Shown in pieces: positions 18,515 to 52,752 of a DNA stretch of 64,000 nt (position 1 is its first letter; every line of letters begins with the position of its first letter). Source of the DNA: Terracidiphilus sp. (GTDB lineage Bacteria > Acidobacteriota > Terriglobia > Terriglobales > Acidobacteriaceae); assembly GCA_050012895.1 (NCBI GenBank), contig JBEKGH010000026.1, positions 2,190 to 66,189 on the forward strand, in the 5' to 3' direction. Below the pieces are notes generated by a model. It searched no databases. It was not told the origin of the DNA and saw only the letters and a list, made by a program, of their open reading frames with translations. Made by a program: the position numbers and the translations under genes.

Positions 18515-19687
18515 TCACGAGGACAAATCACCGGCATTTTGATTTGGCGACGTGGAACCGGGCGAGCCCATTTCTTCAATAGCTTGGACCCTCCGGGCTA
18601 GTGGTGGATGTGTCATGAATATCTCCATTAGACGGCTGCATCTCATTGGCGCTTGAGCGAAGCGATACAAGTTGTCCAGAGCCTGAACCGCTGTTTTTCG
18701 ATTCGTTAAGGCAACGCCAGCCTCATCTGCCGCGTATTCAAATCGGCGCGAGATAAAGCAAGATGCAAGAGTCGGCACAAAGACAAGGGCAATGTCCAAC
18801 ATCGGGCGGAATGGGAAAAAGATTGGGGGAAGCAGAAGGCACGCAAAGATGAGGCTAGCAAATAGTGCAGCCATTGCCTGCATTCGCCTCCTAAAATGCT
18901 TCGACCTTCCATGTTCAAGTTCATGTCCGATAATGAAGTCGAGTTGGTCTCCTTTGAGGAATCTGCTGTAGTTGTCTGTTACGGCAATCACCTGCGCAGC
19001 CCCATAAGCATTGGTTAAGTGCCCTCTCCCTGCCGGCACGACGCACACAACTTTGAGCGACGTCTTAGTCTGTTTCGCCAGCGCAAAGGCCCTCTTGAAA
19101 AGCTCACCGGACTTAACTGGTCGCGGCTTCAACCCCTGCGCCACCCTGAGATTTGTTCTCCCGATCGAATGAAACGCAAAGGCGGCAACGAACCAAGGAA
19201 CGCAGAGAAAGCTCCGGCGGTAAAGCGCATCGAAGCCCCCGGCTGCTAATAACAACGAGGTGGTCGAGTAGATTGTGCCCCAGAGAGATAGCCTCAGCAA
19301 ATCGCTTAGTGTCCACCGGAACCCCAAGGTGGACCTATCAAAGCTAAAAGCGATAAAACGAACAATAAAAAACGCCCCAGTCGGAGCGCCGCAGAATATG
19401 AAGATTGAGTAGAAAACCGGGGCTGTCGAGATCGGTGGAATTTCCTGCTCGTGACCCGATCCTCCAACACTTTGAAAATCCCACAGCGCCCACCAAGCCG
19501 CAATCGCACACAACTCAATGACGTGATTCCACCGCCGGTATGTTAGCCACCGTGATGCCCGTCCCGACTCATCTGCGTGCGAGGTGCGGTACCGAAACCA
19601 GACCGTGGTAAGAACTGGCAAATACAGGATTGCGGCGAGCCAGAATTGCGGGCTTGAGAGAATCCACTGAGCAAAATTTCCAATCAT
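18515..19687 (-). CDS. M48-family zinc metallopeptidase, membrane-embedded
   Basis: HELEHG (HEXXH) zinc motif. N-terminal multi-TM region. Start placed at MIGNFAQWIL. Confidence 0.7.
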   Translation of the reverse strand: MIGNFAQWILSSPQFWLAAILYLPVLTTVWFRYRTSHADESGRASRWLTYRRWNHVIELCAIAAWWALWDFQSVGGSGHEQEIPPISTAPVFYSIFIFCGAPTGAFFIVRFIAFSFDRSTLGFRWTLSDLLRLSLWGTIYSTTSLLLAAGGFDALYRRSFLCVPWFVAAFAFHSIGRTNLRVAQGLKPRPVKSGELFKRAFALAKQTKTSLKVVCVVPAGRGHLTNAYGAAQVIAVTDNYSRFLKGDQLDFIIGHELEHGRSKHFRRRMQAMAALFASLIFACLLLPPIFFPFRPMLDIALVFVPTLASCFISRRFEYAADEAGVALTNRKTAVQALDNLYRFAQAPMRCSRLMEIFMTHPPLARRVQAIEEMGSPGSTSPNQNAGDLSS

Positions 19688-19785
19688 GGGCTTCGATAGG
19701 AGTCTAGCGTATCCCGCTGCGCCGGAAGCCTTCAAACAGGGTTGTCTCTGACAGGCGGCCTGTTCTTCCTGTATCACCTCGAAGC

Positions 19786-19850
19786 CGGAAACAAAGAGGA
19801 AAAGCAACCGCGGATCCTTCGGCTTCGCCTCAGAATGACAGAGCGTTCCA
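19786..19850. repeat. repeat family A copy (reverse orientation)
   Basis: The reverse complement reads ggaacgctctgtcattctgaggcgaagccgaaggatccgcggttgcttttcc. Confidence 0.6.
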
Positions 19851-19887: not shown

Positions 19888-20682
19888 CTACCCCGCGCTC
19901 TTCACCCGCACCACCGTGATCTTCTCAAACCCCTCTTCAAACACCGGCGGCTTGAGCTTCTCCGCCATGCGGTGCATGATGTCTTCGCTCACGGAGCGGT
20001 CGCGCTGGCGGTTGCGCTCCAGGCACACCTCGAGCGGCACATCGAAAAAGACCGCCTGCACTTCGTAGCCGAAGCTCTTGGCCATCTTGATCCACTGGCG
20101 GCGCTCGTGGATGGAGAGATTCGTCGCGTCCACATAGTTCATGGGCATTTTGGCGATGAGCCGCGCGCGTAAAAGCGAGCGCAGCGTGGAGAAGACCAGC
20201 CCCTGGTAGCGCTGCTCCTCAACATCGTCGAAGAGGATGTTGCGCAGCAAATCACTGGACAACGGGGTGATGCCGCGGCGGCCGAACCACGTGGTTTTGC
20301 CGGAGCCGGGCATGCCGATGGCCAGCACCACGAGGCCCTTGGGCGTTTGCCCCTGGGCGTTGGGCTTGGGCGACGGAACGGACGGCATCTCAGGCTGGGT
20401 TTCCACCTCGAGGCGGCCGGACCCCGCCGGCTCATTCCATTGCGGCTTGGCGGGCGATTGGGCCCGTGCAGGCCGGTCAGAACGTTGCGGCCGCGCCGGC
20501 TGGCCTTGCCGGGGCTCCTGGGCTCGCGGCGATTCCTGAGCTCGCGGCGCTGCCGGCGGCCGCGCCGGGATCTCGTCGGGATAGAGCGGGACCAGCGGAG
20601 CCGGCTGATTCGATGGGACTTCCGCGCCCGTTTTGCCGGTGGATTCTGAAGTATTCGGACCACGTCTGGAGCGTCTTCTCAT
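19888..20682 (-). CDS. P-loop NTPase / AAA_33-like predicted kinase with disordered Pro/Arg/Gln-rich N-terminus
   Basis: Walker A GMPGSGKTTW. C-terminal half resembles polynucleotide-kinase-type ATP-binding proteins. N-terminal 110 aa are low complexity. Confidence 0.55.
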   Translation of the reverse strand: MRRRSRRGPNTSESTGKTGAEVPSNQPAPLVPLYPDEIPARPPAAPRAQESPRAQEPRQGQPARPQRSDRPARAQSPAKPQWNEPAGSGRLEVETQPEMPSVPSPKPNAQGQTPKGLVVLAIGMPGSGKTTWFGRRGITPLSSDLLRNILFDDVEEQRYQGLVFSTLRSLLRARLIAKMPMNYVDATNLSIHERRQWIKMAKSFGYEVQAVFFDVPLEVCLERNRQRDRSVSEDIMHRMAEKLKPPVFEEGFEKITVVRVKSAG

Positions 20683-20955
20683 GTTGCTTTCAACCCTTGC
20701 CTAACTTTGCCTTTCACTCGGAATACCATACCGGGCACAGGCGCTGCAAATCTTGTGCACTCCGTCACATACAGTTCCGTCGCGGGAACCCCATCCTTAC
20801 GGTAGGGAATCGTGTGCGCCGGGCAGAGCTGCTCGCACTTCTTTGCCGCCGTCCACAATGTTACGATCAAGGGTTTGGTGGATTCCATTCCAAACGCCCT
20901 AAGAATTCAAGTCTTGAACCCAAATGGTTCACCCAAAGCGAAGGAGAAATCACAG

Positions 20956-21960
<1,005 letters not shown>

Positions 21961-21963
21961 GAA

Positions 21964-22050
21964 ACAGGTTTCAGGGGTCAGGGGTCAGGTTTCAGAAGGC
22001 GAGCCCGGCAAGTCCGGCAAAGTTGCGCCTGCTCCCTGAAACCTGACACC
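21964..22050. other. hairpin-forming inverted repeat in the gap-pgk intergenic region (tcaggtttcag ... ctgaaacctga)
   Basis: 11-bp perfect arms at 21986-21996 and 22036-22046, with an internal ggggtcaggggtcagg direct repeat. No U-tract. Confidence 0.4.
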
Positions 22051-22093
22051 TGGAACCTACTATTGATCTCTGGTTCCGATGAAAGGCAAAGTT

Positions 22094-23314
22094 ATGGCCA
22101 AGCTCTCGATCAAAGACATCGACCTGACCAACAAGCGGGTGTTCATCCGCGTTGATTTCAACGTACCTCTGACCGAAGACGGACAAACGATTACCGACGA
22201 CACGCGCATTGTGGCCACGCTGCCCACCATCGAGTACGCGTTGCGGCACCGCGCCAAGGTGATTCTGGCCTCGCACCTGGGCAGGCCCAAGGGCAAACCG
22301 AATCCAAAATATTCGCTGCGGCCCGTGGTGGACCGTCTGCGCGAACTGCTCGACAAGAAGGAAGACAACTACTCCATCAATGTCGCCTTCTCGCCGGATT
22401 GCGTGGGCGAAATTGCCGAAGAGATGGCGCGCCAGCTCGAATCGGGTCAGGTCCTGCTGCTCGAGAACCTGCGCTTCCACGCGGAAGAGGAAGCCAACGA
22501 CCCGGCTTTTTCAAAAGCACTCGCCTCGCTGGCCGAGGTCTACGTAAACGACGCCTTCGGCTCCGCGCACCGCGCGCACGCCTCCACCGAGGGCATTACG
22601 CACTACCTCAAGCCCGCCGTGGCCGGGCTGCTGATGGAAAAGGAAATCACCTACCTCGGCAAGGCGCTCGAATCGCCGGAAAAGCCTTTTGTGGCCATCC
22701 TCGGCGGATCGAAAATCTCCGGCAAAATCGACGTCATTCAAAACCTTCTCGACAAAGTCGACGCGCTCGCAATCGTCGGCGGCATGGCCTACACCTTCTA
22801 CCGCGCGCTCGGCGTCAAGACCGCCAAGTCGCTTGTTGAAGAAGACAAAATCGAGCTCGCCAAGCAGACGCTCGAAAAGGCGAAGGCCAAAGGCGTGAAG
22901 CTGCTCCTGCCAGTGGATAACGTGATCGCCGACAGCTTTTCGAACGACGCCAAGACCCAGGTGTGGGACAGCTCGAAAGACTTTCCCGAAGGCTGGCAGG
23001 GTCTCGACATCGGTCCCGAGTCGGTTGCCGCCATCGAACAGGTGGTTTCAACCGCAAAGACCATCGTATGGAACGGCCCCGCGGGCGTGTTTGAATTTCC
23101 GCGCTTTGCCGTGGGTACAAACGCCATCGCGCGCGCCGTGGCGGCCAATCGCGCGGCCACATCGATCATCGGCGGCGGCGATTCAGTCAGCGCCATCAAC
23201 CAGGCCGGTGTGGCCGATCAGATCACGCACATCTCCACCGGCGGCGGAGCTTCGCTGGAGTTTCTGGAAGGCAAGAAGCTGCCCGGCGTGGAAGCGCTGA
23301 CGGAAAAACAGTGA
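22094..23314 (+). CDS. pgk: phosphoglycerate kinase
   Basis: [26 protein letters not shown]...[12 protein letters not shown]...GGGASLE. Confidence 0.92.
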
Positions 23315-23331
23315 TCAGTGGTCAGTGATTA

Positions 23332-24021
23332 GTGGACAGAGAATCGAAGCCCCTGCTTGAGTATCTTGATCGAGAAATGATCATCATGAACGAACAGTGG
23401 ATCGAGCCGACTGCCGAGAACGTCAGAAATGCCTGCAAGCGTTTCGCCGACGACATCAACGAGCCCGATCTTGCACTGTTCGAACTCTTTGCACATTACC
23501 CTAAGAACGTGGATTCCGGACACGTCCTGCTGAAGGTCGTGGCGCTGAACGCACTCTACTCGACAATGATTCGCGTATATAGCAAGATCACTCCAACCGT
23601 TTATGAAGTTGCACATCACATTGTCGCAATGGGAAAGGAAGTTGATTCCGGCCTCGAAGTCGGCTTGCCAGGCTTGGTCCTCAAAATCTCAAAGTTAAGA
23701 AAAGGTGAGAACACTTTCCATAACTACTCATTTGCAACAAAGTATTGTAGCTTTCACCGGCCCGAATCTTATCCAATTTACGATTCACGCGTATACGAAT
23801 ACCTCAGACAACTCAGGAACCGCGGCAAACACAAGGGCGGCGGACTCAGACAATTCAAGAACGAAGAATTGTGGAACTATCCCAAATTCAAGGGCATCGT
23901 GGATGAGTTCCAGGTGCATTACGGACTTCAAGAATTCACGTACAAACAGATCGACGCCTTTCTTTACCTTGAAGGCGGGAAGTTGCTCTCCGCCAAAGAG
24001 CAGGAAAAGAAGAAGCTGTGA
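23332..24021 (+). CDS. hypothetical protein, lower-GC island gene 1
   Basis: Codon-consistent ORF (alternative starts at 23377 and 23386). Visibly AT-richer than its neighbours. No motif I recognise. Confidence 0.5.
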   Translation: MDRESKPLLEYLDREMIIMNEQWIEPTAENVRNACKRFADDINEPDLALFELFAHYPKNVDSGHVLLKVVALNALYSTMIRVYSKITPTVYEVAHHIVAMGKEVDSGLEVGLPGLVLKISKLRKGENTFHNYSFATKYCSFHRPESYPIYDSRVYEYLRQLRNRGKHKGGGLRQFKNEELWNYPKFKGIVDEFQVHYGLQEFTYKQIDAFLYLEGGKLLSAKEQEKKKL

Positions 24022-24034
24022 ACAGTGAACAACA

Positions 24035-24075
24035 AAATCGCATCCGATGCGAGAGCGCCGGATGCGATTTTTGAT
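24035..24075 (+). terminator. rho-independent terminator
   Basis: aatcgcatccg-atgcgagagcgc-cggatgcgatt followed by tttt. Confidence 0.55.
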
Positions 24076-24126
24076 GCCCGGTGATTCCTCGAAAATGAAT
24101 ATACTAAAAGCTGGGGCGAAATAATC

Positions 24127-24747
24127 ATGAGTTACTACACGCGAGTCTTGTCGAAAGATGAGGAGTTTCCTTCCTTTGACGAACTTGCGCAATTCGTTCG
24201 CGCCGAGCACCCACAATTCAAACTCACTCTCGAAGAAGGCACAGAGGAAGAGTGGGAAAGCCTGCTCCTCTCCGGAAATGACGACGTTGAAGTTGCGGTG
24301 ATCGAGCGCAATCCGGTCTCGGAGGGTTCAATCGGCGAGGATGACATTGCCGAATTCATCGAGGACACCCAGGATGCAAAGCCTGAAACCGGTGTCGCAT
24401 GGCTCCATGAGTTTCTGGCCTCAGTGAAAACCATTTATGCCTTTCAGCACCTGCAGGGAAACGAATTTGAAGGAGGCAGCAACGCACTCCACGCACTGCG
24501 CACAAAGTTGTGGGAGCGCGGCGACGCGATTCTGCAGGCCGATGGCGAAGGGTTCACGAATGAGGAGGGCTTCCACATCGTCTGGCAGTTCTCCGACTCG
24601 GTCTCAGGCCCATGGAACATGGGCGTGCAGCAGGACGGCGTCTGGCGTCAATTCACGATGGATCTGGGCGATCCGGATCATCGCGCTGCTTTCCTTGAAG
24701 GCTCGGTGCCCGACGATTTGACCTCGACGCTCGGATCAGGCTCGTAG
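24127..24747 (+). CDS. hypothetical acidic protein, lower-GC island gene 2
   Basis: MSYYTRVLSKDEEFPSFDELAQFVRAEHPQFKLTLEEGTEEEWESLLL...: strongly acidic, no motif I recognise. Confidence 0.5.
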   Translation: MSYYTRVLSKDEEFPSFDELAQFVRAEHPQFKLTLEEGTEEEWESLLLSGNDDVEVAVIERNPVSEGSIGEDDIAEFIEDTQDAKPETGVAWLHEFLASVKTIYAFQHLQGNEFEGGSNALHALRTKLWERGDAILQADGEGFTNEEGFHIVWQFSDSVSGPWNMGVQQDGVWRQFTMDLGDPDHRAAFLEGSVPDDLTSTLGSGS

Positions 24748-24866
24748 GCTCAGCGCCACCGCTTCTTCTCGATGGGGTCTTCCCCCTCCGGCAGAGGGTT
24801 CAGTTGACGCTTGTTGACAGGTTGGACCCGGCAATTTAACATCTGGCCTTCCCCCAAGGAATTAGA

Positions 24867-25490
24867 ATGAATGACTCTTGTCCGATTTGTTCCTCGGTGC
24901 TTCCTGAGGGCGTCAGGATTTGCCCGAGATGCGTGGACGTGAGGGACGCAAATCTGCCAGTGGTTGAGGCACCAGCGTCCGATGCGACAAAGAGCTCCAA
25001 CCCGGAGATTTACCAGCCAAAAATCGGCGGATGGCTTTCTTTCGTCAGGGCTGGCTTGGTAATTTGGGCTGTCGTGAGCGGAGCCTTTGCTATCTCGGTT
25101 AACTATGAACTGGACAATGGATTATTCCATCAACTCTTCGCGAGAGATTCGGAAATTGCGCATCTGTGCTCCTTGGAGATCGGAACGAACATAGCGCGCG
25201 TTGCCGCATTAGCTTGTCTGATGGTCCTTTTCTCAAAACGGAAGCGGCTATTTGTACGATGCATGATCGCTTATCTTGTCATCCAGTTCAGTCTGAGTGT
25301 TCTCGATCACATGGCGGCCTCAGCGGTGGCGCGGTCAATTTTCGAGGGGGAAGTAACGGTAGAACTCATAAGCCTGACGGCACTTTTTCCTGCAGAAGTG
25401 TTTGGGCTTTTTGTGGCCTTCGTGATAGCGCTGGTTTTCATTCCGTATTTTCTGAGATCGCAGCGCGTAAGAGCTACGTTTGTGCGCTAG
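24867..25490 (+). CDS. zinc-ribbon + 4-TM membrane protein, lower-GC island gene 3
   Basis: N-terminal CPICSSVLPEGVRICPRCV (CxxC...CxxC zinc ribbon), then four hydrophobic helices. Confidence 0.55.
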   Translation: MNDSCPICSSVLPEGVRICPRCVDVRDANLPVVEAPASDATKSSNPEIYQPKIGGWLSFVRAGLVIWAVVSGAFAISVNYELDNGLFHQLFARDSEIAHLCSLEIGTNIARVAALACLMVLFSKRKRLFVRCMIAYLVIQFSLSVLDHMAASAVARSIFEGEVTVELISLTALFPAEVFGLFVAFVIALVFIPYFLRSQRVRATFVR

Positions 25491-25707
25491 ATTGGTCAGA
25501 CAGCGGCCCACATTCGAAGCCGCGGCCCTTCCAGTAATTCTCCGCGCGTGTCCCCCGGTTAGAACCTGAATGCTTTGCTGGCAAAACAACTACGCACCTC
25601 TCCACGAGGCGCAGCTACCTCGCGCACCCAAGCACGGACCTGTGCTTACCATCACCCCGTACACTGAATTCCATCCATTAAGATTGGTCTGAGGGGTTTG
25701 ATAAAAA

Positions 25708-26460
25708 ATGTCTCGTAAAGCGCTGATTGCTGCCAATTGGAAGATGTACAAGACGCCGGCGGAAGCCATGGCGTTTGTCGATGCTTTTTTGCCGCTGGTT
25801 GCCGGGCACACGCGCGACGAGATCGCGCTGTTCCCTTCTCCGGTGCTGCTGCCAACCGTCACCGCTGCATGCAATGCATCGAATGTGGCCGTGGGCGCGC
25901 AGAACATCCACTTTGCCGAGGAGGGCGCCTACACCGGCGAGACTTCCGTGGGGCAACTGATCGCCGTGGGCGGAACGCATACGCTCATCGGCCACTCGGA
26001 GCGGCGCCAGTACTTTGCCGAGACCGACGAGATTGTGAACAAGAAGCTGCACACGGCGCTCAAACATGGAATCATCCCGATCGTGTGCGTGGGCGAGGTG
26101 CTGGCGGAGCGCGAGGCCGGCAAGACGGCAAGCGTGCTCGAGACCCAGGTGAAGGGCGCATTTGCGGGCATTACGCCCGAGGCCGCGGCGCCGATTGTGA
26201 TTGCCTATGAGCCGGTGTGGGCCATCGGCACGGGCAAAACGGCGACGCCGGAGATAGCCGTCGACGCACACCGCATCATTCGCGCCGAAGTGGCGAAGCT
26301 GCTGGGAGAGAACGTGGCCGCTGCTATGCGCATTCTCTACGGCGGCAGCGTAAAGCCGGACAACGCGACGGCGCTCCTCGGTCAGGAAGAGATTGACGGC
26401 GCACTGGTAGGCGGCGCAAGCCTGAAGCCGGATTCGTTTGCGGCCATCGTGAAATATTAA
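25708..26460 (+). CDS. tpiA: triosephosphate isomerase
   Basis: MSRKALIAANWKMYKT...LIGHSERRQYF...AYEPVWAIGTGKTAT...YGGSVKPDNA. Confidence 0.92.
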   Translation: MSRKALIAANWKMYKTPAEAMAFVDAFLPLVAGHTRDEIALFPSPVLLPTVTAACNASNVAVGAQNIHFAEEGAYTGETSVGQLIAVGGTHTLIGHSERRQYFAETDEIVNKKLHTALKHGIIPIVCVGEVLAEREAGKTASVLETQVKGAFAGITPEAAAPIVIAYEPVWAIGTGKTATPEIAVDAHRIIRAEVAKLLGENVAAAMRILYGGSVKPDNATALLGQEEIDGALVGGASLKPDSFAAIVKY

Positions 26461-26465
26461 AAAGG

Positions 26466-26505
26466 CAGCGGAGTTAGCGGGGCTGGCGGAGTTAGCTGCG
26501 TTAGC
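26466..26505. repeat. short GTTAGCGGR-type tandem repeat array
   Basis: gcggagttagcggggctggcggagttagctgcgttagcg, directly after the tpiA stop. Confidence 0.6.
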
Positions 26506-26546
26506 GTCCGCTGCGCGGACATTCGCAAGTTAGTAAGTTAGCAAAA

Positions 26547-26590
26547 GGCCGTTCGGAGCGAGGAGCTCCGGGCGGCTTTTGGCGTTTATC
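26547..26590 (+). terminator. rho-independent terminator after tpiA
   Basis: gccgttcggagc-gaggag-gctccgggcggc (stem with two G-U pairs), then ttttggcgttt. Confidence 0.5.
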
Positions 26591-26736
26591 GATGCTTTCG
26601 GTTGTTTGGTCTCTGTGCCCCGGAGGGGCAATCGAAAATAGCCCAGGACAAGTTCGCGTGAGCGAACGCAGTCCTGGGTATGCGGTTCCCAAATCTCCCC
26701 GCGCCTCGTAGGGGCGCGACGAAACGGGATTGCGCG

Positions 26737-28299
26737 CTACGCGTAGAAGCTGGCGATCCAGTTCTGCAGCAGCGCCGGGAAGCAACCGAGGACGAGAACG
26801 GCGGCGGCGATGAGCAACAGCACAGCCATCGTGACGGGATGCGCTTTGATGGGCGACTCGTCGGCCGCGGGCATCACATAAGCGCGCTTGAGCACCTGCA
26901 GATAGTAGTAGAGCGAGACGGCGCTGAAAGCGATGGCGAGCGCGACCAGGGCGAAGGGAACCGCGCCAGCACCGCCGGAGAGAACTGCGGCAAACAAGTT
27001 GAACTTGGCCCAGAAGCCGACCAGCGGCGGGATTCCGGCGAGCGAGAGAAAGAGCACAAGCAATACGGCGGCGAGCAGCGGGTTGCGCTTTTGCAATCCG
27101 AGGAAGCTGTCGAGTTTGTCGGAGCCGGTGGCGCGCTCCACGACGCCGACGACACCGAAGGCGCCAATGGTGGTGAGACCGTAGGTGAGGACGTAGTAGA
27201 GAACCGCCTGGGGAATGCGGTCCGGCCATGACAGGAACGCGAGCCCGAGAAGAATGTAGCCGGCATGCGCGATGGCGGAGTAGGCAAGCAGGCGGCGGAC
27301 ACTCGATTGCGCCAGCGCGGCCAGGTTGCCGAAGACCATTGACGCGACAGAGAGAACGACCAAAATCAAATACCAGCCGTAATACACGGTCATCGTGACT
27401 TCGTGTTGCGAACCGCTGACCATTGCTACCGATGCCCCGGAGTGGCTGTGGCCGGCCGATTGCCAAATCCGAACCAGGGTTTGCAAATAATGGAGAGACG
27501 CGTAGCCGATAGAAATGAGCAGAGCGAAGCTGGCGACCTTGGAAACCGATGCAATGAACGCCGCGGCGGGAGCGGGCGCACCTTCATAGGTATCTGGCGC
27601 CCAGAAATGGAATGGGACCGCGGCAACCTTAAAGCCGAGACCGGCGGCGATCATGACCAGCGCGATTAAAATCAGCGGCGTTCCGCCGTTGAAGGCGGCA
27701 TTGTTAACGCCGAAGACAACGCGCGGCAAATAGGTGGAACCGGACAAGCCGTAGAGATAGCTGAAACCGAACAGCAGAAACGCCGCGGACATGCCGCCGA
27801 ATAGGTAATACTTGAGCGCAGCTTCGGCACTCTTCTCGGATTTCTTGGCGAAGGCCGTGAGAATATAGAGGCCGAGCGAGAGCAACTCGAGACCGACGAA
27901 GATGACCAGCAGATCCTGCGCGGCGGCGATGATTATGCCGCCCGCCGCCGCCATCAGCACCACGGAGACATATTCGCCGGGGTTGCGCGTGAACTCGGTA
28001 TCGATGAAGAGCAGAAGCGTGAGCGCGGTAAGAACAAGAATCGCGATCTGCGCGACGGCTGCGGACCCACCCGCGGCAAGGAGAAGGTGCCTGCCGTTAC
28101 TCAGCCCGTCCCAACCCGCGATGTAAACAGCCCAGATCGCTGCAGCGCAGCCGAAGAGGCCAACAAGCGCGGCGACAGCGACGCGGGTCTTGGCTGCGGC
28201 CTTGCGCAGGAAGCCGAGATCGACGACCAGCACAAGGAGCGCGGCGATTTCTAAAGCCGTTTCAGGCAGCGTGGCGCGGAAGAGGTCAACGTAGTTCAT
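26737..28299 (-). CDS. nuoN: NADH-quinone oxidoreductase subunit N
   Basis: MNYVDLFRATLPE...PFHFWAPDTYEGAPAPAAAFIASVSK (ND2-type motif). Confidence 0.85.
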   Translation of the reverse strand: MNYVDLFRATLPETALEIAALLVLVVDLGFLRKAAAKTRVAVAALVGLFGCAAAIWAVYIAGWDGLSNGRHLLLAAGGSAAVAQIAILVLTALTLLLFIDTEFTRNPGEYVSVVLMAAAGGIIIAAAQDLLVIFVGLELLSLGLYILTAFAKKSEKSAEAALKYYLFGGMSAAFLLFGFSYLYGLSGSTYLPRVVFGVNNAAFNGGTPLILIALVMIAAGLGFKVAAVPFHFWAPDTYEGAPAPAAAFIASVSKVASFALLISIGYASLHYLQTLVRIWQSAGHSHSGASVAMVSGSQHEVTMTVYYGWYLILVVLSVASMVFGNLAALAQSSVRRLLAYSAIAHAGYILLGLAFLSWPDRIPQAVLYYVLTYGLTTIGAFGVVGVVERATGSDKLDSFLGLQKRNPLLAAVLLVLFLSLAGIPPLVGFWAKFNLFAAVLSGGAGAVPFALVALAIAFSAVSLYYYLQVLKRAYVMPAADESPIKAHPVTMAVLLLIAAAVLVLGCFPALLQNWIASFYA

Positions 28300-52627: not shown

Positions 52628-52671
52628 CGCGCAGAGCTCCTTGATGAATCCAGATTAACAAATCGAGCATT

Positions 52672-52752
52672 TAGCCTTCAGCTCTCAGCTTTCAGCTCCC
52701 GCATCGGGTCTTAGCTGACGGCTGACAGCTGAAAGCTGAGAGCTTTTTCCTG
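52672..52752. other. long perfect hairpin (18-bp arms agctctcagctttcagct / agctgaaagctgagagct) followed by TTTTT
   Basis: Arms at 52680-52697 and 52728-52745. The loop contains gctgacggctgacagc. It belongs to the AGCT-rich family (see also 1238-1258, 12295-12330, 38186-38212, 51738-51778). Confidence 0.6.

What the first reader, a model, noticed from the sequence alone, without database searches (positions are those of the whole stretch)
23332..25490. Lower-GC three-gene cassette inserted between pgk and tpiA
gap, pgk and tpiA are usually contiguous. Here 2.4 kb separates pgk from tpiA. The insert is visibly AT-richer than its surroundings and holds three co-oriented genes. Gene 1 is a 210-aa protein of unknown type. 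Gene 2 is a strongly acidic 206-aa protein. Gene 3 is a CxxC...CxxC zinc ribbon fused to a 4-TM domain. A clean terminator follows gene 1. The compositional shift and the interruption of a conserved operon suggest horizontal acquisition. A small soluble protein plus a membrane zinc-ribbon protein is the kind of architecture seen in phage-defence or abortive-infection cassettes.
Basis: partly seen in the sequence, partly recalled or inferred. Interest (0 to 1): 0.65.

Follow-up and report, generated by a model that had tools for sequence, protein, structure and literature searches.

The report
Gene-turnover hot spot between pgk and tpiA
The three genes between pgk and tpiA are not one imported cassette: the middle gene is a long-standing resident of this Terracidiphilus lineage, and the two outer genes are separate strain-specific insertions, one of which looks like a DNA-glycosylase-type anti-phage enzyme.

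Summary
2,393 bp with three co-oriented ORFs separate pgk from tpiA in a Terracidiphilus (Acidobacteriaceae) genome.

The single-cassette reading fails.
- **Gene 2** (acidic, 206 aa, no Pfam family) lies between pgk and tpiA in all 104 related loci where pgk, gene 2 and tpiA are all visible. It has near-native codon usage and diverges in step with gap+pgk, so it is resident.
- **Gene 1 and gene 3** have low GC and are absent from the closest relatives. They occupy two different spacers, so they are independent insertions.
- **The "clean terminator" after gene 1** is the conserved native pgk terminator. Gene 1 was inserted just upstream of it, without the promoter its homologues carry.

In relatives the same slots hold PIN toxin–antitoxin pairs, Uma2 nucleases, a Shedu defence gene and miscellaneous genes. 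This is a classic hot spot flanked by core genes.

Gene 1 belongs to Pfam PF27257 (distantly related to DUF6308). It has a confident helix-hairpin-helix DNA-glycosylase fold and an invariant Lys…Asp…Asp-x3-aromatic pattern like that of Dag1, a defence-associated glycosylase. Its homologues recur at this slot with phylogenies discordant with pgk. A Dag-like antiviral role is plausible but untested.

Gene 3 is an orphan zinc-ribbon–DUF2569 membrane protein of unknown role. Interest is modest.

The parts
20956..21960 (+). gap (glyceraldehyde-3-phosphate dehydrogenase), left core anchor
   Evidence: Pfam Gp_dh_N and Gp_dh_C, E 1e-59 and 9e-38. 81-99% identical in all 80 related genome loci.
22079..23314 (+). 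pgk (phosphoglycerate kinase), core gene on the left edge of the hot spot
   Evidence: Pfam PGK, E 4.5e-161. 98% identical to a Terracidiphilus MAG, L001.
23308..23339 (+). Short array of TCAGNNN-type heptads directly after the pgk stop. It belongs to the native pgk 3' region.
   Evidence: Tandem 14-nt repeat D13. The heptad pattern occurs 12 times in the window against 0.33 expected. Arrays of 0 to about 14 heptads follow pgk in related loci.
23347..24035 (+). Insertion 1, about 690 bp, GC about 48%: a promoter-less gene 1 segment. AATCG lies at both junctions (23342-23346 and 24036-40).
   Evidence: Homology to L001 stops at 23346. Homology to L002 and L006 resumes at 24035/24037. The segment 23315-24033 has GC 0.477.
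23386..24021 (+). Gene 1: 211-aa member of PF27257 (HI_0787_N), with a helix-hairpin-helix (HhH) DNA-glycosylase-like fold. Candidate Dag-like glycosylase.
24034..24076 (+). Native pgk terminator hairpin: 13-bp perfect arms, 12-nt loop, T-run
   Evidence: Inverted repeat I7. The same hairpin follows pgk in L002, L006 and many other loci that lack gene 1.
24127..24747 (+). Gene 2: resident, conserved, acidic 206-aa protein with no Pfam family and two tandem alpha/beta domains
24794..25639 (+). Insertion 2, about 850 bp, GC about 52%: gene 3 with its own promoter-like site. It replaces the native gene 2-tpiA spacer, in which gene 2 and tpiA lie about 110 bp apart.
   Evidence: Homology to relatives stops near 24793 and resumes at about 25640. 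The segment 24772-25704 has GC 0.527.
24814..24842 (+). Sigma-70-like promoter candidate, TTGACA-17-TAACAT, 25 nt upstream of gene 3
   Evidence: It is the only promoter-like site in 20500-26800. This is a consensus match only; 2.0 sites are expected by chance in that region.
24867..25490 (+). Gene 3: orphan zinc-ribbon (CPIC...CPRC) plus four-TM DUF2569 membrane protein
   Evidence: Pfam DUF2569, E 5e-17, full length. The only hit in 5.8 billion proteins is itself. Absent from 160 related loci. Hydropathy and CxxC positions.
25708..26460 (+). tpiA (triosephosphate isomerase), core gene on the right edge of the hot spot
   Evidence: Pfam TIM, E 6e-90.

Best explanation
The pgk-tpiA interval of this Terracidiphilus genome is a gene-turnover hot spot flanked by core genes. 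It is not a cassette. It has three layers.

1. Gene 2 is a resident, vertically inherited, cytoplasmic acidic protein of an unnamed family. Its function is unknown. It is probably transcribed with tpiA.

2. Gene 1 is a horizontally exchanged single gene of family PF27257 with a helix-hairpin-helix (HhH) DNA-glycosylase fold.
   - Here it was inserted by illegitimate recombination (AATCG at both junctions) between the pgk stop and the native pgk terminator.
   - It lost the promoter its homologues carry, so it is now most likely expressed by read-through of the gap-pgk transcript.
   - Inferred function: a Dag-like defence-associated glycosylase. It would flip out and excise a modified base from invading phage DNA, using the invariant Lys118/Asp132/Asp189 and a stacking aromatic at position 193.

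3. Gene 3 is a separately inserted orphan zinc-ribbon-DUF2569 inner-membrane protein with its own promoter-like site. Its role is unknown and nothing ties it to genes 1 or 2.

Shown: residency of gene 2, independence and recency of the two insertions, native origin of the terminator, the hot-spot cargo in relatives, and the fold and conserved residues of gene 1.

Inferred: read-through expression, glycosylase activity, and an anti-phage role.
For: Organism and synteny:
- pgk is 98% identical to a Terracidiphilus MAG, and 80 related loci were fetched.

Gene 2 is resident:
- It is found in 51 of 80 genome loci, and always between pgk and tpiA (47 of 47). In metagenome loci the figure is 57 of 57.
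- It is present throughout the window's own clade on a gap+pgk tree.
- Pairwise divergence correlates with gap+pgk, Pearson r = 0.60 over 1,081 pairs.
- CAI is 0.68 against a reference of 0.70.
- It is 94% identical to L001, in line with the flanking genes.

Genes 1 and 3 are recent and separate:
- Gene 1 is in 0 of 80 and 2 of 80 related loci; gene 3 is in 0 of 160.
- GC3 is 0.60 and 0.56 against a reference of 0.75.
- DNA homology to relatives breaks at 23346/24035 and at about 24793/25640.

The terminator is native:
- The hairpin is conserved after pgk in loci without gene 1.
- In L082, L084, L088, L089, L093 and L095 the order is pgk, heptads, hairpin, TTGACA/TATAnT promoter, gene 1 homologue. 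In the window the order is pgk, heptads, gene 1, hairpin.

Hot-spot cargo in relatives:
- PIN+Phd/YefM pairs, RHH_6+PIN_3 pairs, Uma2, an AI-2E transporter and a CarboxypepD_reg protein.
- BrnT and RES-Xre modules.
- Shedu SduA, GGDEF-EAL, SPFH, GH53 and an acyltransferase.

Gene 1 moves horizontally but stays at this locus:
- Of the 10 homologue contexts examined elsewhere, 7 lie immediately downstream of pgk and one more lies just upstream of tpiA.
- Gene 1 identity is discordant with pgk identity. L093: pgk 78%, gene 1 74%. L082: 87% and 64%. L089: 90% and 50%. L111: gene 2 90%, gene 1 48%.
- The homologues have low GC in every host, 44-55% against 57-60%.

Gene 1 fold and active site:
- pLDDT 96.
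- K118, D132 and D189 are invariant in 60 of 60; position 193 is aromatic in 59 of 60.
- Dag1 is a solo, unannotated HhH-fold protein. Its predicted active site holds K118, D132, D184 and W188. The K118A, D184A and W188A mutants lose defence against 7-deazaguanine phages, and D132A keeps partial activity. Dag genes lie in AT-rich, mobile contexts, and Dag homologues are reported in Acidobacteriota (bioRxiv 10.1101/2025.10.29.685425).
Against: - No Dag sequence could be obtained, so membership of gene 1 in any Dag family is untested. The agreement in residue numbers could be coincidence.
- Profile searches found no sequence-level link to solved glycosylases. An hhalign comparison against EndoIII was uninformative.
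- PADLOC (2023) does not recognise gene 1.
- The tight linkage of gene 1 homologues to pgk could instead reflect a housekeeping or metabolic link.
- There are no phage or plasmid homologues and no viral structural match.
- Read-through expression is inferred only from the missing promoter and the position of the terminator.
- Genes 2 and 3 have no assigned mechanism.
Confidence: 0.62

Rival explanations
1. Genes 1-3 form one horizontally acquired operon-like cassette, a soluble protein plus a membrane zinc-ribbon effector, that acts as a phage-defence or abortive-infection system.
For: - The three genes are co-oriented and adjacent.
- The block as a whole has lower GC than its surroundings.
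- The same slots in relatives carry toxin-antitoxin modules and a Shedu gene.
Against: - Gene 2 is conserved at this position in 104 of 104 informative loci, without genes 1 or 3.
- Gene 2 has near-native codon usage.
- Genes 1 and 3 have separate junctions.
- The conserved native terminator separates gene 1 from gene 2.
- Gene 3 has its own promoter-like site.
- Gene 1 homologues occur without gene 2 or gene 3.
- Gene 3 has no relatives at all.
- PADLOC found no hits.
Confidence: 0.03
2. All three genes are ancestral parts of the glycolytic locus, an extended gap-pgk-X-Y-Z-tpiA operon, and were lost in the relatives.
For: - Gene 2 is ancestral to the clade.
- Gene 1 homologues lie after pgk in several distant Terracidiphilus.
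Against: - Genes 1 and 3 are missing from every one of the closest relatives, with pgk 91-98% identical. That would require many independent clean losses.
- Gene 1 and pgk identities are discordant.
- GC3 and CAI of genes 1 and 3 are 2-3 sd below the reference.
- Gene 3 is an orphan.
Confidence: 0.05
3. Gene 1 is not a defence gene. It would be a housekeeping-type HhH-fold enzyme, such as a DNA-repair glycosylase or a nucleoside/queuosine-salvage-like hydrolase, or a non-catalytic DNA-binding protein. Its recurrent position after pgk would then reflect co-expression or simple persistence at the locus.
For: - Most homologue contexts (8 of 10 outside the window) lie in the pgk-tpiA interval.
- There is no hit in PADLOC, PHROGs, phages or plasmids.
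Against: - The distribution is patchy: 2 of 160 close loci.
- GC is low in every host.
- Its phylogeny is discordant with pgk.
- Its neighbours are toxin-antitoxin modules and nucleases.
- Housekeeping glycosylases are core and compositionally typical, according to 10.1101/2025.10.29.685425.
Confidence: 0.25
4. Gene 3 is a decaying or non-functional remnant, or a mis-called ORF, inside junk DNA inserted between gene 2 and tpiA.
For: - It has no relatives among 5.8 billion proteins apart from itself.
- Its CAI is the lowest of the genes at this locus, 0.50.
Against: - The DUF2569 match is full length, E 5e-17, covering profile positions 3-143 of 143.
- The zinc ribbon and four TM segments are intact.
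- A promoter-like site lies at the right distance upstream.
- An identical protein is recorded in an independent metagenome.
Confidence: 0.1

Closest known systems
Dag (defence-associated HhH DNA glycosylases), e.g. Dag1/VP1840 of Vibrio parahaemolyticus (bioRxiv 10.1101/2025.10.29.685425)
   Same: - A solo protein of about 200 aa that ordinary sequence searches do not annotate.
- A predicted helix-hairpin-helix glycosylase fold.
- A conserved Lys, two Asp and an aromatic four residues after the second Asp. Gene 1 has K118, D132, D189 and an aromatic at 193. Dag1 has K118, D132, D184 and W188.
- An AT-rich, horizontally exchanged gene in a variable locus next to toxin-antitoxin and defence genes.
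   Different: - Gene 1 lies in a chromosomal hot spot between core genes of an acidobacterium, not in an integron cassette.
- Activity and phage target are unknown.
- In this genome gene 1 lacks its own promoter.
Pfam PF27257 (HI_0787_N) and PF19827 (DUF6308), uncharacterised families
   Same: - Gene 1 and all 120 listed homologues carry PF27257.
- 44 of 60 homologues also match DUF6308 over the K118-D132 segment, best E 1.5e-6.
   Different: Neither family has a described function. Gene 1 itself scores below the DUF6308 threshold: 14.9 bits against a cut-off of 27.3.
Canonical HhH-GPD base-excision-repair glycosylases (Ogg2 TM1821, MutY, EndoIII, MagIII, AGOG)
   Different: - There is no detectable sequence similarity.
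- There is no Fe-S cluster motif.
- A beta-hairpin (residues 102-111) replaces the classical hairpin.
- The gene is accessory, not core.
Integration/turnover hot spots flanked by core genes (Oliveira et al. 2017, PMC5635113; core defence hotspots of P. aeruginosa, PMC10250203)
   Same: - The same pair of core genes (pgk, tpiA) brackets highly variable cargo in related genomes. The gap ranges from 126 to 5,736 bp and 127 ORF clusters are singletons.
- The cargo includes toxin-antitoxin modules, nucleases and Shedu.
- No integrase or other mobile-element marker is present at this locus.
   Different: - The hot spot is very small, with one to a few genes per slot.
- It splits a glycolytic gene cluster.
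- It contains a resident conserved gene (gene 2) in its middle, which creates two sub-slots.
DUF2569 (PF10754; E. coli YdgK-type inner-membrane proteins)
   Same: The C-terminal 155 residues of gene 3 match the whole profile, E 5e-17, and there are four hydrophobic segments.
   Different: Gene 3 has an extra N-terminal CxxC...CxxC zinc ribbon. It is so divergent that no relative shares 5-residue words with it. The family's function is unknown.

Membership tests
Dag defence-associated glycosylases (10.1101/2025.10.29.685425) | [quoted passage not shown] | tested here: met
Dag defence-associated glycosylases (10.1101/2025.10.29.685425) | Catalytic Lys-Asp pair plus a base-stacking aromatic lining the pocket (Dag1 K118, D184, W188; D132 contributes) | tested here: inconclusive
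   K118, D132 and D189 are invariant in 60 of 60 homologues, and position 193 is aromatic in 59 of 60. The spacing matches Dag1. No superposition or alignment with a Dag could be made.
Dag defence-associated glycosylases (10.1101/2025.10.29.685425) | Sequence homology to one of the 17 validated Dag families | not testable with these tools
   The paper's supplements list locus tags and accessions only.
Dag defence-associated glycosylases (10.1101/2025.10.29.685425) | Accessory, AT-rich, horizontally exchanged context near defence or mobile genes | tested here: met
   - GC is 48% against 60% for the window.
- Homologues have 44-55% GC in hosts of 57-60%.
- Its phylogeny is discordant with pgk.
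- Neighbours in other genomes include BrnT, RES-Xre, PIN and Uma2.
- Shedu occupies the same slot in L041.
Dag defence-associated glycosylases (10.1101/2025.10.29.685425) | Protects against phages with modified (7-deazaguanine) DNA and cleaves such DNA in vitro | not testable with these tools
   This needs an experiment.
Pfam PF27257 (HI_0787_N) | Match to the family model | tested here: met
   Precomputed PF27257 hits exist for the exact window protein (P0001; L081) and for all 120 listed homologues. The model is not in the local Pfam copy, so no score was computed here.
Known anti-phage defence systems (PADLOC-DB v2) | Any of the three proteins matches a defence-system model | tested here: not met
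   No families for genes 1, 2 or 3 at E up to 1.
Single horizontally acquired operon or cassette | The genes co-occur and move together, with one pair of junctions | tested here: not met
   - Gene 2 occurs without genes 1 or 3 in more than 100 loci.
- Gene 1 homologues occur without genes 2 or 3.
- There are four junctions, not two.
- A native terminator lies between genes 1 and 2.
DUF2569 (PF10754) | Score above Pfam's gathering threshold over the whole domain | tested here: met
   Gene 3 scores 63 bits against a cut-off of 26.5, covering profile positions 3-143 of 143.
Type II toxin-antitoxin pair (considered for genes 1+2 or 2+3) | Two small adjacent co-transcribed genes that co-occur, with a match to toxin or antitoxin families | tested here: not met
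   There is no co-occurrence. There are no toxin or antitoxin Pfam hits. The gene gaps are 105 and 119 bp, with a terminator in the first.

The most novel reading that the evidence does not exclude
The PF27257 family (distantly related to DUF6308), so far uncharacterised, would be a lineage of Dag-type antiviral DNA glycosylases. In Acidobacteriaceae it would be 'locus-locked' to the pgk 3' slot. Divergent alleles would be swapped between species by recombination in the flanking glycolytic genes. In this strain the gene would have been captured upstream of the pgk terminator, so that a defence enzyme is expressed constitutively from a glycolytic operon. In addition, gene 2 would define a new conserved two-domain protein family tied to the pgk-tpiA locus of this clade.
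Probability: 0.35. Interest if true: 0.5.

Novelty: new member of a known kind. Interest (0 to 1): 0.33.

Why it matters
The result corrects an attractive but wrong reading. It shows how a gene-turnover hot spot flanked by core genes can look like an inserted cassette when only one genome is read.

If gene 1 is indeed a Dag-like glycosylase, three things would follow:
- glycosylase-based anti-phage defence would extend to soil Acidobacteria;
- an unnamed Pfam family, and possibly DUF6308, would gain a function;
- it would be an example of a defence gene kept at one chromosomal address by recombination in the flanking genes.

Gene 2 is a widespread family with no Pfam model: 1,515 homologues (clusters at 90% identity) and 476 clusters at 50% identity. 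It could be worth a family definition. None of this is very surprising to a specialist.

Tried and rejected
- **PADLOC, NCBIfam and PHROGs scans of the three proteins:** nothing significant.
- **Profile search of the gene 1 family against PDB sequences:** only noise.
- **hhalign of the gene 1 family against E. coli EndoIII, typed from memory:** probability 0.1, uninformative.
- **tblastn of gene 1 against phage and plasmid collections:** no match. Gene 3 against plasmids gave one marginal Paenibacillus chromid hit, E 1e-3.
- **Foldseek of gene 1 against viral structures:** nothing, E > 0.5.
- **afdb50 fold library:** unavailable.
- **Pfam scan of 70 divergent gene 2 relatives:** no family.
- **Metagenome scan meant to reach distant gene 2 relatives:** the first alignment was too divergent for the tool. 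The second returned only close relatives, 71-95% identical, so linkage of distant members to pgk/tpiA remains untested.
- **Mobile-element signatures around the inserts:** there is no tRNA, integrase or long terminal repeat. Only a 5-bp AATCG sits at both gene 1 junctions, which may be microhomology or chance.
- **The 'CAGTGAT' repeats after pgk, considered as a possible recombination site:** rejected. They belong to a genome-wide heptad-array terminator-like repeat.
- **Dag protein sequences:** not obtainable from the paper's supplements.
- **A first tree script:** timed out and was rerun.
Full report
**What is in the sequence**

- The window comes from a Terracidiphilus-like acidobacterium. 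Its pgk product is 98% identical to that of a Terracidiphilus MAG.
- gap lies at 20956-21960, pgk at 22079-23314 and tpiA at 25708-26460. All three were confirmed by Pfam.
- Between pgk and tpiA lie 2,393 bp with three co-oriented ORFs:
  - gene 1: 23332/23386-24021;
  - gene 2: 24127-24747;
  - gene 3: 24867-25490.
- Gene 2 is strongly acidic, pI 4.16.
- Gene 3 has CPIC and CPRC motifs followed by four hydrophobic segments, and a full-length DUF2569 match with E 5e-17.
- A perfect 13-bp-arm hairpin with a T-run follows gene 1 at 24034-24076.

**Composition**

The low GC is not uniform. The window has 60.2% GC. Twenty-six long reference ORFs give GC3 0.746 ± 0.065 and CAI 0.70 ± 0.075.

| Gene | GC | GC3 | CAI |
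|---|---|---|---|
| gene 1 | 48.2% | 0.60 | 0.61 |
| gene 2 | 56.2% | 0.66 | 0.68 |
| gene 3 | 51.4% | 0.56 | 0.50 |

Gene 2 is close to native. Genes 1 and 3 are not.

**Comparison with relatives**

I fetched 80 loci from related species genomes using pgk as the query. I fetched another 80 metagenome loci using gene 2. All were mapped with tblastn.

- Gene 2 is present in 51 of the 80 genome loci at 67-95% identity.
- Wherever pgk, gene 2 and tpiA are all visible, gene 2 lies between pgk and tpiA: 47 of 47 genome loci and 57 of 57 metagenome loci.
- On a gap+pgk tree, gene 2 is spread over the whole group and is present in every member of the window's own clade. There are scattered clean losses: seven loci have pgk and tpiA only 126-350 bp apart.
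- Pairwise gene 2 divergence correlates with gap+pgk divergence, r = 0.60 over 1,081 pairs. Mean gene 2 divergence is about 2.3 times that of gap+pgk.
- Gene 2 is therefore a resident, vertically inherited gene.
- Gene 3 is in none of the 160 loci.
- Gene 1 is in none of the 80 closest loci and in only two of the metagenome loci. There it is 48% and 74% identical.

**Junctions**

- In the simplest relatives (L002, L006) the order is: pgk, about 60 bp, hairpin, about 50 bp, gene 2. Gene 2 and tpiA then lie about 110 bp apart.
- DNA homology between the window and its relatives breaks at 23346 and resumes at 24035/24037. It breaks again near 24793 and resumes near 25640.
- The hairpin after gene 1 is the same hairpin that directly follows pgk in genomes lacking gene 1. 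It is the native pgk terminator, not a terminator brought in by gene 1.
- Gene 1 sits between a short array of TCAGNNN heptads after the pgk stop and this hairpin. AATCG is present at both junctions.
- In six other genomes that carry a gene 1 homologue after pgk, the order is: pgk, heptads, hairpin, a TTGACA/TATAnT-type promoter, a 5' leader, then the gene. The window keeps only the last 40 nt or so of that leader.
- I infer that gene 1 is promoter-less here and is expressed by read-through from gap-pgk.
- Gene 3 carries the only sigma-70-like site of the region (24814-24842) 25 nt upstream of its start.
- These are two separate insertion events flanking a resident gene.
- Gene 2 is 94% identical to L001, in line with pgk (98%) and tpiA (97%). 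It was therefore not imported together with its neighbours.

**The interval is a hot spot**

- The pgk-tpiA distance ranges from 126 to 5,736 bp.
- Both sub-slots are variable. The pgk-to-gene 2 spacer exceeds 300 bp in 26 of 47 genome loci. The gene 2-to-tpiA spacer exceeds 300 bp in 17 of 47.
- Cargo in relatives includes:
  - PIN+Phd/YefM pairs (7 loci) and RHH_6+PIN_3 pairs;
  - Uma2 nucleases, including one in the closest relative, L001;
  - a CarboxypepD_reg protein, an AI-2E transporter and small membrane proteins;
  - BrnT and RES-Xre modules;
  - a Shedu SduA gene, a GGDEF-EAL protein, an SPFH protein, a GH53 enzyme and an acyltransferase.
- 127 ORF clusters are singletons.
- No integrase, tRNA or long terminal repeat is present.
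- This fits turnover hot spots flanked by core genes, maintained by recombination in the flanks (PMC5635113, PMC10250203).

**Gene 1**

- It has 282 homologues, all assigned to Pfam PF27257 (HI_0787_N).
- 44 of 60 homologues also match DUF6308 over the most conserved segment.
- The AlphaFold model is confident, pLDDT 96.
- No sequence-level link to solved structures was found.
- K118, D132 and D189 are invariant, and position 193 is aromatic in 59 of 60 homologues.
- A 2025 preprint describes Dag proteins (10.1101/2025.10.29.685425):
  - They are solo, unannotated, HhH-fold glycosylases in AT-rich mobile contexts.
  - They destroy phage DNA that carries 7-deazaguanines.
  - Dag1's predicted active site holds K118, D132, D184 and W188. 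K118A, D184A and W188A abolish defence; D132A keeps partial activity.
  - Dag homologues are reported in Acidobacteriota.
- Gene 1 shares the same Lys-14-Asp spacing and the Asp-x3-aromatic motif. This is striking, but I could not obtain any Dag sequence to test homology.
- Of the 10 homologue contexts examined outside the window, 7 lie directly after pgk and one lies just upstream of tpiA.
- Gene 1 identity is discordant with pgk identity:

| Locus | pgk identity | gene 1 identity |
|---|---|---|
| L093 | 78% | 74% |
| L082 | 87% | 64% |
| L089 | 90% | 50% |
| L111 | gene 2 is 90% | 48% |

- The homologues have low GC in every host.
- The simplest reading is an accessory gene that is exchanged between species but stays at one address, because integration uses the conserved flanks.

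**Gene 2**

- It has 1,515 homologues (clusters at 90% identity) and 476 clusters at 50% identity.
- No Pfam family matches any of 70 divergent members.
- The best-conserved motifs are QAD-EGF(T/S)NE-G-HI-WQF and MDLGD--HR-AF.
- I cannot assign a mechanism. It is cytoplasmic, conserved yet dispensable, and its constant spacing of about 110 bp from tpiA suggests co-transcription with tpiA.

**Gene 3**

- The only hit among 5.8 billion proteins is an identical copy.
- It is a real-looking but orphan zinc-ribbon-DUF2569 membrane protein.
- Nothing links it functionally to genes 1 or 2.

**Verdict**

- The "three-gene defence cassette" interpretation is not supported.
- Horizontal origin is supported for genes 1 and 3 only, as independent events.
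- My estimates: about 0.85 for the mosaic and hot-spot structure; about 0.4-0.45 for the Dag-like antiviral function of gene 1; about 0.6 for read-through expression.
- Overall this is a new member of known kinds: a hot spot between core genes, and a candidate defence glycosylase. It is of modest interest.

Noticed in passing
window 21964-21995 (+) / 22029-22053 (-); 23308-23339; 52671-52695 (+) / 52715-52739 (-); also L025, L053, L093 after pgk: Arrays of TCAGNNN heptads occur 12 times in the window against 0.33 expected. Inverted arrays form long hairpins followed by T-runs, a terminator-like or REP-like intergenic repeat. After pgk, the copy number varies from 0 to about 14 among related genomes.
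   Followed up: partly
window 26616-26678 (-): There is a near-threshold match to the Acido-Lenti-1 RNA motif (RF01687): 36.5 bits against a gathering score of 37, E 1.4e-5. It lies between tpiA and nuoN. A similar sequence occurs at a different place in L001 (2774-2872).
   Followed up: no
window 18515-19807 (-): A 430-aa membrane protein ORF with an HExxH motif lies three genes upstream of the finding. It is also compositionally atypical (GC 52.9%, GC3 0.57, CAI 0.49), which suggests another acquired gene nearby.
   Followed up: no
L041 9242-10363 (-): A complete Shedu SduA defence protein (PF14082 E 5e-28, PF21407 E 9e-8) occupies the pgk-to-gene 2 slot in a related MAG.
   Followed up: partly
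L082, L084, L093, L095 (between gap and pgk): A subclade of Terracidiphilus carries a RidA-family gene (Ribonuc_L-PSP) between gap and pgk. The gap-pgk spacer is therefore also variable in this group. The window has only 118 bp with heptad hairpins there.
   Followed up: no
L003, L021, L024, L025, L042, L052, L053: Gene 2 has been lost cleanly in at least seven related genomes, leaving pgk-tpiA gaps of 126-350 bp. Some of these are sisters of genomes that carry gene 2, so the conserved gene is dispensable.
   Followed up: partly
window 19888-20682 (-) and the equivalent position in L082, L084, L088, L093, L095: An AAA_33-type kinase gene is conserved divergently upstream of gap across the clade. 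The window copy has a long Pro/Arg/Gln-rich N-terminal extension in a stretch of 65-70% GC.
   Followed up: no
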